DNA from: Perna viridis | Lineage: Eukaryota | Length of the DNA stretch: 64,000 bases | Assembly (NCBI GenBank): GCA_037379345.1 | Contig: CM074518.1 | Span: forward strand, 11,532,001-11,596,000 | Reading direction: 5' to 3' | Part shown: piece by piece, positions 36,001 to 63,000 of the stretch | How the letters are laid out: each line of letters opens with the position of its first letter | How positions within the stretch are numbered: position 1 is the stretch's first letter | Program-made: the position numbers

Positions 36001-39000
36001 GGAGAGTGTTTGTCCTCATAATGAAAATAAATTGCCATGAAATTGAATTATAGTATACTTCAATAACTGTAAATAAAGTTTTACCTCTAGTGCATCCATG
36101 GCCATAGTTGCGAGATAGTTAGGATCCTGTTTGTTCCATCCGAGTCTCAGAAGAGGATGATGTTGGGGATCTTCATAAATAATTGTAGAATGTTCTAAAT
36201 GACGCAGGTCAAACATACGCACAGACCCATCAGCACCTTCAAGTAAAAAAATTGGCATTTAGATTTCACATTACAGAATCATCCATTGACAAGAACTTAT
36301 TTGAAAAATCAGTGATTTAGTTTAAAATATAATGAAGCATTAAGCAATACCTTTTGAGTTACAGATTACACAAAGTGGGTACCCTGAAAGCATGACAGAC
36401 CAGTGGGTGGAGTAAAATGGCTAGAAAACCTGCTTTTACAATTGGCAATGCAGGTTAAATTGACATATTAACTAATTTTTGCCATAATGTTAACTACATA
36501 ACCAGTGATAAGTTTACACACCTATCTGCTTTTTAATGTGTCACTTTGAATTAAAAAAAAATTAATGTCTGCATCCATTATTGCATTTTGTCATTTAATC
36601 CAAAAATGTGATTTTAATTTTTACAATTTGAGGAAAAATTCAGCATCTGGTATAAATGCTAAATATCTCATAATAAGCGTTTTTATCATTGAAATTTAAA
36701 GTCAGTTACATTTTAAAATTTCTGAAATTGCACTGTCTGTCTGCTTCCACCTGCTCTATACTGTGATTTTATTTATTTTCCTGATTATCAATATTAATGT
36801 TAAGAGAGGAAAAAGACTTGAAAACAGTAACTGGTTTATGGGTAAATAAAATAAATAAAAATGCTTTGCAGGGTACAGCTTGATATGCCTGCAGAGGACC
36901 CCTCCATTTTGTGGAATGGCACTTTGGTATACAAATTTCAGAGATCCAGTTTTTGTCTGTGCATAATAAAAATGCTTCCCTTTTGTGGTTTGGAACCTAG
37001 TTATAAAAATAAGATTAACCAACTAATAGTTATCTCACAAAAACCAAGTGTCTACAGACGAAGATGACAACAAGGATGACAGCGCCATACTATAATATGT
37101 CACAAATTTGTGGTTATATAATAAAAAAAAAATTATAAGGGTATCTGCATTTCAGGCAATTCATGAAGTTGAAGGTGTTGTTGTGTTATGTATACCCTCA
37201 CTGGTACTGAAGTTGATAATGGATAGCAACCAAAATTGCTTACAACATATGCCTAATCTATATGAAGCCACACACTAAATTTGAAATTAATCCATCCATT
37301 GGGAACCAAAATTTCTAGGAAGAAAATTCTGACAGAATTAGGAACAGATAGAATGACAAACAAGGTGTTCCTTGGTGCTAGGTAATTTTAATCATGAATT
37401 GAATTTACATATGTGATACATCTGTCAGGGAATAAAGAATCCTATTATCATTTACCTATAACACGTAAAAGTTCTAGTAAATAAGAAATAAGAATTAATT
37501 GAATGAAAAATTCAGTCATCATTTCTACTTCTATGATAAACAGAGAGCAGTGAAACCCTGAGTTTTCCTTACACCACATGTATGACAATTGTTATCAAAG
37601 GAGAAATGGAGGGAAAATTGGAGGTCACTTTTTATTAATGGTTCACACTGACACAAGACTATTTGACTGCTAAAAAGTTAGTTTGCTGTTTAATTAAACA
37701 GTTATGAGATGACAGGATGTCAACTGCTCAATAAGACTATGCCCTCCATGTCTCTTGAATGATACCAAGAGTCAATCAATCTGAATTATCAGTCATCCAT
37801 CGAGAAAACTGTACACTGGATTTTCAAAGTTCAACATTACCCACGGAAACCATGGAAATCAGTGCTACACTAATAAATGAAACCAAAGTATGTTCTGTTC
37901 CTAACTTACCCACACTGGCAAACATGTCTCTGCCTCCACCTGCTCTACTGAAGGCAATGTCATATACTTCCTTGTCATGAGCTATCAACTGTGTTTTAAC
38001 ATGACCTGATACTAAGTTGACTCTTCCTAATACCTGCCCTGTCTGAAATTATAAAAAAGACTAAAATTAAACTGACAGAGAGTTAATGTCTCTACCAGTA
38101 ACACTATTGATACATTGAATAACTTAGTTGGTGATACCTTAAAATATCAAGTAAATACCCATTCACAACTTATAAGCTTAATCATTGTCATGATGGAGTA
38201 AATGATCCACTTATACTTGTAAGCTGTATCATTTGCAATATGCATTACCAATGTACATGAATATATACAACATGCTTTCTCAACCATAACAAAAAATAAG
38301 TCACAAGGATAGTAATGCTCTACTCAACTATCATGACAACATTAAAGGCATTCATATCACTGAACAGCTATTAACATATAATACACAAAAAGTAATATAA
38401 ATAAATGTTCAAGTCCCCAGATTGCACATACTGGATATGACATACTGAAGGAGGTTTACATGTACTTACATGTACCTAAGCCCCCAGATTGTACATGTAG
38501 TATCTATAGGTGATGTTAGCTATGATATACTAGAGGAGGTTTACATGTACTTACCTCAAGTCCCCAGATTGTACATGTAGTATCTATACTTAATGTTAGA
38601 TATGACATACTAGAGGAGGTTTACATGTACTTACCTCAAGTCCCCAGATTGTACATGTAGTATCTATACTTGATGTCCCCAGCAAATTGGGATCAACTTC
38701 ATTCCAGTCAAAAGAAGTCAGTGGTGCACAAAAATCAGAATTCTTATTCTTAAAAAGAAAGGTAATATATAGAATTAATGGTGTCCATCTCTGAAAAAAT
38801 AAAGTACTTAAAAAGTCAACTTGTTTAATTTTTGTGGAAAATAAATTTATCATATATTTACATAGTACATGTATTCATTTGCAGAACCATACATTTGTAG
38901 TTTTGTACATCATTGTTTTCAAATTTAAACAAGAAAATCTTCAAAATTGGCTCACAATCTAAGTACTTTTTTAAAACAGCAAAATGATCAACCTAAAAGT

Positions 39001-60000: not shown

Positions 60001-63000
60001 TAAGAAATTGAAAAATGATTAATCAATAAGTATTTATTGTACAACTTAATGTATAAGAAAATTGAGGTTCAATAATTATGGTTTGTGGACAATAATAGTG
60101 TCATATGATCTTTATTATTACCCCCATCCATTTATTTTATATTACCAAATTTTAAAACAAATTCATATAATTCACAAACATGATGGGTGTAAAAATGTAT
60201 TACAAAACATATATTTGTATTGCAGATGATAGGATTATGGGAGTGTTGATACAAGTTAAAGGAATATTTTATTATTTGTTATACCCCCGCTCCGAAGTAG
60301 AGGGGGTATACTGTTTTATCCTTGTCCATGTTTCTGTCAGTTTTCTCAGCAACTACTCATCACACTGGCTTGAAATTTTAAAACATGTCATATGGTGGGA
60401 TCCTTTTCAGAACTTTGTGTTTACAGAGGACTTTGTTTATTTTTTTTACTTTTTATTTGTGAAAGTTGAAACTTTCATCACTCTTTACTCAGCAACTACT
60501 CATCACAGCAGCTTGAAATATAAACATATTCTTCGAGTAGGTATGCCATAAGGTGAGATCCATTTTTTGGAAAAATTCGGCAACTTCCCGTTTACAAAGG
60601 ACTTTTGTTTATTTTCCCTGTATTGTGATTAAAGGTGGGTTATCACTACTCACATATTTCTTGTTTTTTGCCTTTAAAAGAATGAAAAGTGAGTCCATTT
60701 TTGTTTTCCTTTTAAGTTGTTAATAAGTTAGCAGGGAATTCTATGTACAGTGCTCTAGGATTGCAGAATTTTCTGCTTTAAATGAGCAAGTTTAATTTCA
60801 GAAACATAAAAATGTTACTTTCCCTCGGTTAATTATCACTTACTTCTTGTGTAGGGAATTTTGAACTCTTGATCCATGAAGGGTTCATGCTTATGAGGTT
60901 TGAGTCTGCATTTCACTTTTCTGTCATCTCTTAGATCTGTTGCATTGTGTGAGCCTACATAAGTTATATACTGTTGAGGCTTGTATAGGCTGGTTTGCTC
61001 TCTTTGAGCCTGTGTTTGTTATGGTAGAATTGCACCATGTCTAAAACTGGTATTGGTACAAATGTATATACATTATATTTGAAGTTAACACAGAGAACTT
61101 TTTCAGGTGTAGTTGGAAGGTGAATGATATCCTATCATCACAACATTACTAACTGTTACTAAATGTAACATTTTGTTTTTGTTAAGTAATGGTTGCACTT
61201 CATGTTTTTATGTGTTAATAAGACCTTGACAACCAGAAAGTTTCAATAAAAAAAAATACTGAATTTTCAAGTAAAATTTGCCTGTGAGTAAATACATTGC
61301 TATTCAGATAATTGAAATTACTATACAACCAAGTTAGAAATGGTAGCCTGCCCACAAGCCTGAGACTGGCTATTTTTTTGACAGAGCTAGTTAATTTTAG
61401 CAAAAATCTATATAGCCATGTAGTAAATATATTGAAAAAATGTATTCAGGAATGGCTAGAATTTGAGTGAGTTTCCTATCCTGCATACAATGAAATACTA
61501 ATTGTTTGTCATAGTATGAAAAATTTATTTTCCCTTTACCATGGTCTAGAGTACACATTGTACTTGTTATTTTGTTATTTATAAAATTTTATGATCTATA
61601 GTAGACTGGTTTGTGGTTAAGGCATTGCTGGAAACCCATGGTTGATAATGCTTAGACCCTTAACATTTCTGTTAACAAAATGTACAAAGTGCAATGAATT
61701 GTGGGTTTCCATTGATGCATTTAGTACAATGTTACATTGTTTTTCTAAAAAAATTTTTAGTACAGTTCAGAATTAATGTAAAGCCAAACTTACACTCAAC
61801 TGTATGCTTTCATTGTACTCATGTGAACCTCTATTGTACTGAAAATAACTAATATTTACATCTTGATTCTCCTGTAGGCATTAAGGGATCAGAGAAGAGT
61901 TGTTACAGCTTATTGGTTGAATGATGTTCTGTTGAAAAAGAAAATGGTACCTCCATGGCAGGCATTACATTTACCACTAGTGTATGGGGAGAACAAACCA
62001 TGTAGTAATCAGGTTAGTTATTGGCATTTCATTTACTACAGGTGTATGGGGAGAACAAATAATGTAGTAATCAGGTTAGATATTGGCATGCATTTACCTC
62101 TAGTGTGTGGGAAGAACAAACCATGTAGTAATCAGGTTAGTTTTTAGCATCTTATTTACCACTAGTGTATGGGGAGAACAAACCTTGTATTTACCACTGG
62201 TGGTATGGGGAGAACAGACTCTGTGGTAATCAGGTGACATTTAAATATAACAAAACAAGCCAATGTATACATTGTACTGAAAATGCACACACATAAACCT
62301 GAAATTGAAGAAAAGGAGTTCATGTTCATCTAATCATTATCAGTAATCTGGTCAATTGTGTGACATTAACCACTAGTGTACAACAAGGACTAAGCATGCA
62401 ATATTCAGGTTTATTACAGGCCTTACACCTTGAATAAGTATTGTAGTAAGTCTATTTTCTCTTGCATATTATGTGTTTTTATCAATGAGTTTGGTTTTTT
62501 TTTCAATTCATTTCAGATTCTGTGTATGACAAACTTCGATGGGGATGAGAGAATTAGAGTTAAACAGATGATCAATGCAATTGGTGCTCGATATACTGGC
62601 CACATGACACATCAAAACACTGCACTAATTTGTAGAAAGTGAGTAAATTGGTCATTGTACATAAAAACTTCTTTATTTCTAAACTTTCCAAAAAAAAATA
62701 TGGGGATGAAAAGTATTCTTTGTAAGAATTTCTCTGATGATTGAATTTTTATAACCTTCAAAACAACAGATGTTACCAGTAATATTTTTTTTGCAGGGTG
62801 GGAAATTTTCTTCAGGGGAAACAACTTTATTAAGGTTAACAATATCACTGAGATGGGTTCGCTGATAAAGTTATTTTTGAGTAAAGTTTTCCATATTGGC
62901 TTTGCTGTTGGTCCTTGTCTAGCTAGATTGGACAGATACACAGCCTTAGTTCAATATGAGGCCTAAGACCAATGAATAAGCCAATATGGAAAATCATATT

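What the first reader, a model, noticed from the sequence alone, without database searches (positions are those of the whole stretch)
38408..62240. Recurrent tandem duplications centred on splice donors in two unrelated genes
Seen: four independent arrays whose unit is the last 20-50 nt of a coding exon plus the GT donor and adjacent intron: DCAF7 coding exon 4 (80 nt), PAXIP1 exon 7 (37 nt), exon 8 (65 nt) and exon 11 (62 nt). The four units are unrelated to each other, so this is not a transposon family. The exon-proximal copy is intact and the distal copies decay. That is 4 of the 20 coding-exon donors in these two genes. Inference: a junction-focused duplication process (splicing- or transcription-coupled repair, or nucleosome/methylation boundaries), or selective tolerance of such duplications. 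Either would supply decoy donors and raw material for exon extension or intron gain. This is the best candidate in the window for an undescribed system; I cannot confirm novelty.
Basis: partly seen in the sequence, partly recalled or inferred. Interest (0 to 1): 0.72.

Follow-up and report, generated by a model that had tools for sequence, protein, structure and literature searches.

The report
Splice-donor minisatellites ("mirages") in a mollusc
Four splice donors in two neighbouring mollusc genes are followed by tandem copies of the exon end plus the donor, a structure already described in lancelet ("mirages") and in several human genes, so it is a new example of a known oddity and not a new system.

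Summary
DCAF7 (minus strand, 8 coding exons) and PAXIP1 (plus strand, 13 exons in the window) have 20 donors. Four are followed by tandem copies of exon end + GT donor + intron start. Three are clear arrays: DCAF7 exon 4 (80 nt), PAXIP1 exon 7 (37 nt) and exon 11 (62 nt). Exon 8 (about 66 nt) is one diverged duplication that TRF does not report. The units are unrelated to each other and occur nowhere else in the window.

Donors carry such copies more often than intronic positions do: 4 of 20 donors, 0 of 19 acceptors, 3.4% of 4,637 intronic positions (nominal P 0.0003–0.02 depending on the null). This rests on one locus and was chosen after the fact.

The structure is not undescribed. Minisatellites whose first unit spans an exon–intron boundary are known in human F7, 6-16, CBS, LAMIN B2 and PDGF, and as "mirages" in several lancelet genes.

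Most likely these are ordinary tandem duplications. They are tolerated because the most upstream donor is used and almost every decoy would give a premature stop. A real donor-focused bias is not excluded and needs a genome-wide count. The window is molluscan, not human.

The parts
34646..41694 (-). DCAF7 gene. Eight coding exons: 41694-41533, 40508-40407, 39475-39377, 38748-38635, 38042-37910, 36236-36085, 35449-35332, 34818-34646. Seven donors.
   Evidence: tblastn of P0019 (unnamed, near-identical) and P0022 (Argonauta hians DCAF7). GT/AG signals and phases.
38635..38748 (-). DCAF7 coding exon 4 (114 nt, phase 0 at both ends). Ends ...WGLE, with donor GAG|GTAAGT at 38634-38633.
   Evidence: In P0019 and P0022 the residues after GLE continue directly with exon 5 (TGQ...).
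38409..38676 (-). 80-nt donor-spanning minisatellite. Copy 1 (about 36-41 nt of exon plus 44 nt of intron), copy 2 (3 of 80 positions differ, donor intact), copy 3 (5-nt insertion at the donor) and a 21-nt remnant of a fourth copy.
   Evidence: TRF; self-blast cluster; alignment A1; differences.
43977..64000 (+). PAXIP1 gene, 13 coding exons in the window, running off its end: 43977-44060, 46944-47081, 49110-49153, 51012-51072, 51738-51851, 53572-54099, 55800-56006, 57158-57293, 57773-57864, 58435-58530, 61878-62012, 62517-62638, 63318-63499. Thirteen donors.
   Evidence: exon 6 finds mollusc PAXIP1 proteins. tblastn of P0001, P0003 and P0008. Signals and phases; one search showed the ends of exons 3 and 4 one base off, and the corrected donor 9-mers are.
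55973..56177 (+). 37-nt donor-spanning minisatellite at PAXIP1 exon 7 (exon ends at 56006, donor AAG|GTAAGA). Five copies; the fifth reaches 8 nt further into exon sequence than copies 2-4.
   Evidence: TRF; alignment A2.
57270..57392 (+). A single diverged tandem duplication (offset 66) of the end of PAXIP1 exon 8 (exon ends at 57293, donor ATG|GTAAGT). The copy has AAT|GTAAGT.
   Evidence: Not reported by TRF.
61961..62240 (+). 62-nt donor-spanning minisatellite at PAXIP1 exon 11 (exon ends at 62012, donor CAG|GTTAGT). About five copies; the unit is 52 nt of exon plus 10 nt of intron.
   Evidence: TRF; alignment A4.
62363..62427 (+). An older, diverged copy of the exon-11 unit near the 3' end of intron 11. 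With it, repeat-derived sequence spans intron positions 1-415 of 504.
   Evidence: E=5e-7, 74% over 54 nt.
63506..63740 (+). 42-nt x 5 purely intronic array that starts at intron position +7 after the exon 13 donor. The donor itself is not in the unit.
   Evidence: TRF.

Best explanation
These are donor-spanning intronic minisatellites, called 'mirages' in the lancelet literature.

Inferred origin: in each case an ordinary tandem duplication (replication slippage or unequal exchange) happened to cover an exon-intron boundary. This placed a copy of the exon end plus donor inside the intron. The intronic copies then expanded and decayed like any minisatellite.

Inferred persistence: such duplications leave the mRNA unchanged as long as the most upstream, authentic donor is used. 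That behaviour was shown experimentally for the human F7 array. Use of almost any decoy would give a premature stop.

Duplications inside exons or across acceptors are more damaging and would be removed. This leaves a visible class at donors.

Shown here: the repeats, their position, the reading-frame consequences, and the shared states among distal copies. Inferred: the mutational mechanism, which donor is used in this animal, and neutrality.
For: (1) Anatomy. The first unit contains the authentic exon end, which is collinear with orthologous proteins. Later units lie in the intron.

(2) The exon sequence came first. The duplicated residues are conserved in other molluscs, for example HLPLVYGENKPCSNQ against scallop HIPLIFADVKPCCNQ and [13 protein letters not shown] in DCAF7.

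(3) Expansion happened among intronic copies, not by repeated copying from the junction. All 4 distal exon-7 copies share CA where copy 1 has CG, and G at donor position +4 where copy 1 has A.

(4) There is no fixed footprint around the junction. Exon parts are 36-41, 26-34, about 24 and 52 nt; intron parts are 44, 11, about 40 and 10 nt. A machine anchored at the splice site would be expected to give regular offsets.

(5) Among GT sites with at least 6 of 9 matches to CAG|GTAAGT, every unit-copy decoy except the one at 62136 either has an in-frame stop inside its extension or shifts the frame (exon 11 copy 2, +62 nt). Three other donor-like GTs that precede the first in-frame stop are also listed.

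(6) Decoy donor motifs decay at the same rate as the rest of the unit: 20 of 107 against 84 of 577 positions, P=0.30. Decoys are therefore neither strongly preserved nor strongly purged.

(7) The units are unique and local, so they are not transposon-borne.

(8) Precedent. In human F7 intron 7 the pseudo-sites are functional but silent because the most upstream site wins (PMC1557585). Lancelet mirages do not disturb splicing (PMC3087553, PMC3902484).
Against: Pure neutral tolerance predicts donors to be hit at the intronic rate, not above it. Here donors are hit about 6-fold more often than intronic positions (4 of 20 against 3.4%, P=0.004), or about 12-fold if the arrays' own distal copies are removed from the background (1.6%, P=0.0003). 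Random placement of arrays expects 0.62 of 13 clusters to span a donor (P=0.002 for 4 or more) and 0.25 of 8 TRF arrays (P=0.001 for 3 or more).

A fifth array starts 7 nt after another donor.

Constraint on the exon half of copy 1 could at most double the time a duplication stays detectable, which does not explain the whole excess.

No RNA data from this animal show which donor is used. The donor-versus-acceptor contrast is not significant (4 of 20 against 0 of 19, Fisher P=0.11).
Confidence: 0.62

Rival explanations
1. A real donor-focused bias exists in this genome. Tandem duplications either arise more often at exon 3' ends (a mutational hotspot linked to transcription, splicing, chromatin or sequence features kept by selection on the exon) or last longer there, because one copy is anchored by purifying selection and large deletions next to exons are forbidden.
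For: Nominal excess at donors under every null tried: P from 0.0003 to 0.02. 4 of the 13 local-repeat clusters in the two genes span a donor, and a fifth starts at +7. The exon 7 and exon 11 donors each carry copies of two ages or extents (exon 7 copy 5 reaches further into the exon; an old distal exon 11 copy). The lancelet literature calls mirages 'possibly a more general phenomenon' with an unclear mechanism (PMC3087553).
Against: There are only 20 donors at one locus, flagged because it looked odd, so the P values are post hoc. Offsets around the junction are irregular. Shared derived states show that most copies came from expansion within the intron, so there are about four founding events, not many. 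Donor against acceptor is not significant (P=0.11).
Confidence: 0.22
2. The decoy donors are kept because they are useful, for example as extra U1 snRNP binding sites that strengthen definition of the upstream exon, as backup donors, or as a source of alternative isoforms.
For: Arrays sit at donors with higher U1 complementarity (mean 7.5 against 6.1 of 9 matches, Mann-Whitney P=0.02). Several decoys are still strong: DCAF7 copy 2 and exon 11 copy 3 are identical 9-mers to the authentic site. The exon 11 copy 3 donor at 62136 would add 123 nt in frame without a stop. In F7 minigenes, exon skipping rose as more pseudo-sites were inactivated (passage in PMC1557585).
Against: Donor motifs in distal copies are not better conserved than the rest of the unit (20 of 107 against 84 of 577, P=0.30). 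One exon 7 copy has lost its GT. No unit-copy decoy other than the one at 62136 keeps the reading frame open. The in-frame exon 11 extension would insert 41 residues between the stretches that align to orthologues without a gap. There is no transcript evidence.
Confidence: 0.1
3. The arrays are assembly artefacts: stutter, or mis-joined haplotypes of a highly heterozygous genome.
For: Tandem repeats are error-prone in assemblies. For lancelet PGBD5, two assemblies differ in copy number (PMC3902484). This cannot be tested here.
Against: The copies are imperfect, with substitutions and indels (70-96% identity), and they have different ages. A stutter artefact would not produce that. Four unrelated units show the same architecture.
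Confidence: 0.05

Closest known systems
Lancelet (amphioxus) 'mirages': minisatellite-like tandem duplications of exon-intron boundaries in Adh3, globin BflGb6/BflGb9, TnC and PGBD5
   Same: The tandem unit contains exon sequence plus a splice site. Unit sizes overlap (Adh3 10-72 bp; here 37-80 nt). Several can occur in one gene: PGBD5 has a 60-bp repeat overlapping exon 3 and a 108-bp repeat overlapping exon 4, each tied to a 5' splice site. Normal splicing is reported as undisturbed, the mechanism is called unclear, and they are proposed as raw material for new introns (passages of PMC3087553 and PMC3902484).
   Different: Different phylum: mollusc, not cephalochordate. Lancelet mirages occur at both 5' and 3' exon boundaries, whereas here only donors are affected (4 of 20 donors, 0 of 19 acceptors). 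Length polymorphism and somatic instability, shown for Adh3, cannot be tested here. The founding paper (Canestro et al. 2002, Nucleic Acids Res) is not held; I saw it only as a reference entry.
Human minisatellites whose first monomer spans an exon-intron boundary: F7 intron 7 (37 bp), interferon-inducible 6-16, CBS intron 13, LAMIN B2 (100 bp), PDGF intron 4 (81 bp)
   Same: The architecture is identical: the authentic donor is followed by reiterated pseudo-donors in the intron. Monomer sizes are similar (37-100 bp). The most upstream site is used (PMC1557585, abstract and introduction passages).
   Different: These are isolated cases in separate genes, and most are polymorphic arrays of near-identical monomers. 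Here there are four in two adjacent genes and the copies have diverged. The F7 monomer holds only 4 exon bases; here the exon part is 24-52 nt.
Intron gain or exon-intron remodelling by tandem duplication (proto-splice-site duplication model; internal tandem repeats at exon-intron boundaries in human segmental-duplication genes)
   Same: A tandem duplication supplies extra splice signals (PMC2812944 passages; PMC2891723 abstract; PMC3265369 and PMC4974935 seen in the search listing only).
   Different: No new intron is created here. The duplications extend existing introns: repeat-derived sequence spans 415 of the 504 nt of PAXIP1 intron 11. No acceptor-side copy was found (0 of 19).
Transposon-borne short satellite-like arrays of bivalves (Helentron- and MITE-associated)
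   Same: Short tandem arrays scattered through bivalve genomes (PMC7492417, PMC3879986: search listing and abstract openings only).
   Different: Those arrays are dispersed families carried by mobile elements. The four units here are single-locus, unrelated to each other, and built from conserved host exon sequence.

Membership tests
Exon-intron boundary minisatellite ('mirage' / F7-type) | Head-to-tail tandem repeats with a unit of minisatellite size (about 10-160 bp) | tested here: met
   TRF periods 80, 37 and 62 with 3.0-4.0 copies. The exon 8 case is only two copies at offset 66 and TRF does not report it.
Exon-intron boundary minisatellite ('mirage' / F7-type) | The first unit spans an authentic exon-intron boundary, so the splice site is reiterated in the intron | tested here: met
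   Exon ends fixed by orthologue tblastn and splice signals. Copies aligned with the junction.
Exon-intron boundary minisatellite ('mirage' / F7-type) | The authentic (most upstream) site is the one used, and the mRNA is normal | tested here: inconclusive
   Indirect only. The first donor keeps the frame collinear with orthologues. P0019, an unnamed near-identical protein, reads ...WGLE then TGQ.... No unit-copy decoy other than the one at 62136 keeps the frame open. There is no RNA from this animal.
Exon-intron boundary minisatellite ('mirage' / F7-type) | Copy-number polymorphism or instability between alleles | not testable with these tools
   Only one haplotype of one 64-kb window is available.
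Exon-intron boundary minisatellite ('mirage' / F7-type) | Local origin from the host gene, not a dispersed repeat family | tested here: met
   No copy of any unit elsewhere in the window at E<0.5, and the units are unrelated to each other. Only 64 kb could be searched.
Intron created by tandem duplication of a proto-splice site | The donor region and the acceptor region of the same intron are copies of one another | tested here: not met
   0 of 19 acceptors have a local copy of the junction at score 16 or more out of 30. The repeats lie only on the donor side.
Transposon-borne tandem array (Helentron/MITE type) | The unit belongs to a multi-copy dispersed family with element termini | tested here: not met
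   The units are built from conserved exon sequence and are single-locus within the window. A genome-wide check was not possible.

The most novel reading that the evidence does not exclude
In this mollusc, donor-spanning minisatellites are not rare accidents but a frequent, donor-biased feature of genes, arising or persisting at five or more times the intronic tandem-duplication rate. They would preferentially sit at strong donors of short introns and be a main way introns grow (repeat-derived sequence spans 415 of the 504 nt of PAXIP1 intron 11). That would extend the lancelet 'mirage' phenomenon to lophotrochozoans and point to a general, still unexplained junction-linked process in highly polymorphic marine invertebrates.
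Probability: 0.22. Interest if true: 0.65.

Novelty: new member of a known kind. Interest (0 to 1): 0.38.

Why it matters
If the local frequency (4 of 20 donors) held genome-wide, thousands of genes in this animal would carry intact decoy donors just downstream of real ones. That would make it a natural test bed for how the spliceosome picks the first of several identical 5' splice sites. It would also allow a direct test of whether boundary duplications feed intron growth, exon extension or intron gain.

As it stands, the locus adds a mollusc example to a phenomenon described in lancelet and in a few human genes. It also warns gene predictors: decoy exon ends can be mis-annotated as exons, as discussed for lancelet PGBD5.

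Tried and rejected
(1) Transposon or satellite family. Rejected: the units are unrelated and single-locus.

(2) Intron gain by duplication of a proto-splice site. Rejected: there are no acceptor-side copies (0 of 19).

(3) Selective purging or preservation of decoy donors. No signal: 20 of 107 against 84 of 577 positions differ, P=0.30.

(4) A fixed spliceosome or EJC-like footprint. Rejected: the exon and intron parts of the units are irregular.

(5) The 88-nt x 5 array at 31463-31949 as a fifth donor array. Its unit carries CAG|GTGAG-like motifs on the minus strand, but by eye the upstream flank is full of stop codons and no exon is evident, and it lies among transposon remnants. Not counted.

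(6) Looking for further genes in 1-34 kb to enlarge the sample. A Pfam scan of 10 long ORFs gave only an RNase H fragment and a sub-threshold eIF-6 hit, so the sample stays at 20 donors.

(7) TRF at minimum score 30 on the exon 8 region. 0 rows.

(8) Literature. Searches failed on term syntax. Canestro et al. 2002 is not held. A search for mirage + tandem + intron + splice + mollusc gave 4 papers. I read passages of one, which concern lancelet mirages; the other three I saw only as titles and abstract openings, none of which mentions boundary repeats. A search for bivalve + tandem repeats + minisatellite + introns + genome gave 1 unrelated paper.

(9) Comparison with orthologous introns of other species or haplotypes was not possible.
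Full report
Source and scope

The window has 32% G+C and no N. A single-exon search with PAXIP1 exon 6 found only mollusc PAXIP1 proteins, the best being Mizuhopecten yessoensis at 40% identity. DCAF7 exon 6 is 100% identical to an unnamed protein (P0019) and 96% to Mya arenaria and Argonauta hians, against 94% for vertebrates. 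I take the window for a mollusc, probably a bivalve, and not for human.

Spliced models were searched exon by exon.

Gene models

I ran tblastn with named orthologues (P0001, P0003, P0008 for PAXIP1; P0022 for DCAF7) and with P0019, and combined it with GT/AG signals and phase bookkeeping.

- DCAF7 has 8 coding exons on the minus strand (41694 to 34646).
- PAXIP1 has 13 coding exons on the plus strand (43977 to 63499) and runs off the window.
- One search showed the ends of PAXIP1 exons 3 and 4 one base off.

The observation

TRF reports 20 rows for the window. In the genic part (34.6-64 kb) there are 8 arrays with period 17 or more.

Three of these 8 contain a donor:
- 38434-38676: period 80, 3.0 copies.
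- 55981-56129: period 37, 4.0 copies.
- 61961-62189: period 62, 3.7 copies.

An independent self-blastn scan (same strand, offsets 12-600) gives 19 clusters in the window and 13 in the two genes. Four of the 13 overlap an exon, always at its 3' end. None overlaps an acceptor.

The fourth case, PAXIP1 exon 8, is a single diverged duplication: 76% over 58 nt, E=2e-7. TRF misses it even at score 30.

In every case the first unit holds the exon end, the GT and the start of the intron:
- DCAF7 exon 4: 36-41 nt of exon plus 44 nt of intron.
- PAXIP1 exon 7: 26 nt plus 11 nt (the fifth copy has 34 nt of exon).
- PAXIP1 exon 8: about 24 nt plus about 40 nt.
- PAXIP1 exon 11: 52 nt plus 10 nt.

The duplicated exon residues are conserved in other molluscs, so the exon is the source and the intronic copies are derived. 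The four units share nothing beyond 9 nt and have no other copy in the window at E<0.5.

Is the position at donors more than chance?

I took a 30-nt window centred on each junction and asked whether it has a direct copy within 400 nt that spans the junction. At score 20 or more out of 30:
- donors: 4 of 20
- acceptors: 0 of 19
- sampled intronic positions: 3.4% of 4,637

The binomial P is 0.004. At other score thresholds P ranges from 0.004 to 0.02. With the arrays' own distal copies removed from the background (1.6%), P is 0.0003.

Placing the first unit of each array at random in non-coding genic sequence gives:
- 0.62 of 13 clusters expected to span a donor; P for 4 or more is 0.002.
- 0.25 of 8 TRF arrays expected to span a donor; P for 3 or more is 0.001.

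Results that weaken the case:
- Donor against acceptor is not significant (Fisher P=0.11).
- The constrained exon half of copy 1 can up to double how long a duplication stays detectable.
- All tests concern one locus that was flagged because it looked unusual.

I therefore treat the excess as suggestive, not established.

Two further post hoc associations appear:
- The four donors are stronger than the other 16 (7.5 against 6.1 of 9 matches to CAG|GTAAGT, P=0.02).
- Their introns are shorter (P=0.049).

A fifth array (42 nt x 5) starts at intron position +7 after the exon 13 donor without including it.

Anatomy and history

- DCAF7 copy 2 differs from copy 1 at 3 of 80 positions, all in the intron-derived part, and its donor is intact. 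Copy 3 has a 5-nt insertion at the donor. A 21-nt remnant of a fourth copy follows.
- At PAXIP1 exon 7, all four distal copies share CA where copy 1 has CG, and G at donor position +4 where copy 1 has A. Most copies therefore arose by expansion among intronic units, not by repeated copying of the junction.
- The only other CpG in an exon-derived part (exon 8) is TG in the copy. This fits neutral CpG decay.
- At exon 11, five copies plus an old distal copy (62363-62427) place repeat-derived sequence across intron positions 1-415 of 504. Within that cluster, 347 of 467 nt are in aligned repeats.
- Across all distal copies, the 9-nt donor motif differs from copy 1 at 20 of 107 positions and the rest of the unit at 84 of 577 (P=0.30).
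- Exon-derived parts differ at 56 of 434 positions and intron-derived parts at 28 of 143 (P=0.056).

Consequences of using a decoy

Reading through the authentic donors meets an in-frame stop codon that begins 37, 31, 27 and 133 nt after the exon end, for DCAF7 exon 4 and PAXIP1 exons 7, 8 and 11 respectively.

One search lists GT sites with at least 6 of 9 matches to the consensus. The decoys that are copies of the authentic donor either carry an in-frame stop inside their extension or, for exon 11 copy 2 (+62 nt), shift the frame.

The exception is the exon 11 copy 3 site at 62136. It is an identical 9-mer to the authentic donor and would add 123 nt in frame with no stop.

Three other donor-like GTs lie before the first in-frame stop:
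- DCAF7 +10 nt (frameshift).
- DCAF7 +24 nt (frame-preserving).
- PAXIP1 exon 11 +29 nt (frameshift).

What it is

The structure is a known kind.

- Borensztajn et al. [quoted passage not shown] They list 6-16, CBS, LAMIN B2 and PDGF as further cases. They show that the pseudo-sites are functional but silent because the most upstream site is selected.
- Ebner et al. [quoted passage not shown] - Pavelitz et al. 2013 (PMC3902484; passages) report a 60-bp and a 108-bp tandem repeat in lancelet PGBD5, overlapping exons 3 and 4 and coinciding with or overlapping 5' and 3' splice sites.
- De Grassi and Ciccarelli 2009 (PMC2812944; passages) report internal tandem repeats at exon-intron boundaries that generate novel introns.

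The founding paper (Canestro et al. 2002) is not held; I saw only its reference entry. I could not open supplementary files, which may hold further mirage alignments.

Within the searched library I found no report of such arrays in molluscs.

How it most likely works

This section is inference unless marked otherwise.

1. A tandem duplication of 37-80 nt happens to cover a donor.
2. The upstream copy keeps its full exon context and is chosen. This was shown for F7, not here.
3. The downstream copy becomes intron.
4. Unequal exchange then multiplies the intronic copies (shared derived states), and they decay.
5. Duplications inside exons or across acceptors are removed by selection, which leaves a visible class at donors.

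The irregular offsets argue against a machine anchored at the junction. The nominal excess argues that plain tolerance may not be the whole story. The rivals are given in the Rival explanations section.

Verdict

The interpretation as an undescribed system is not supported. This is a new (molluscan) member of a known kind, with a local density that deserves a genome-wide count.

Noticed in passing
whole window; cluster at 41749-43437: The palindromic octamer TACATGTA occurs 33 times against 2.2 expected (largest shuffle 6). Fifteen hits lie inside three tandem arrays (units at 3522, 31463 and 38434). Ten lie in the roughly 2.3-kb divergent intergenic region between the DCAF7 and PAXIP1 start codons. 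It may be a promoter motif or a slippage-prone palindrome.
   Followed up: partly
41694 (DCAF7 ATG, minus strand) and 43977 (PAXIP1 ATG, plus strand): The two genes are head-to-head with 2,282 nt between their start codons, which suggests a shared bidirectional promoter region.
   Followed up: no
62013-62136: The third copy of the exon 11 unit carries a donor 9-mer identical to the authentic one. Using it would extend exon 11 by 123 nt in frame with no stop codon. It is the only decoy that could yield a full-length variant protein.
   Followed up: partly
63506-63740: A 42-nt x 5.1 intronic array begins at intron position +7, directly after the PAXIP1 exon 13 donor consensus, without containing the donor.
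   Followed up: partly
31463-31949: An 88-nt x 5.5 array (89-91% matches) whose unit carries CAG|GTGAG and AAG|GTAAAG donor-like motifs on the minus strand. By eye the flank is full of stops and no exon adjoins it. It lies among transposon remnants and may be a transposon-borne satellite-like array.
   Followed up: partly
195-1524: A 1.3-kb complex minisatellite region with 24- and 32-nt units and 70 self-HSPs. It translates into a long leucine/valine/phenylalanine-rich ORF that is probably not coding.
   Followed up: no
2714-2956 (-), 7158-7454 (+), 17342-17641 (-), 30723-31022 (+): Four copies of an interspersed repeat whose ORF reads ...SNSAGVSRKAEDAYPTGAPGPCSQF... (similarity judged by eye from the ORF list). 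Two are preceded by ORFs ending ...ISTMKTD(V/L)FNGS.
   Followed up: no
27904-28589: Retroelement remnant: an RNase H domain fragment (Pfam PF00075, E=3.9e-5, just below the curated cut-off), followed by a 155-aa ORF with no Pfam match.
   Followed up: partly
44061 and 49154: Two PAXIP1 donors are very weak by U1 complementarity: AAG|GTCTCA and ACC|GTATCT, 4 of 9 matches each. Both precede long introns (2,883 and 1,858 nt).
   Followed up: no
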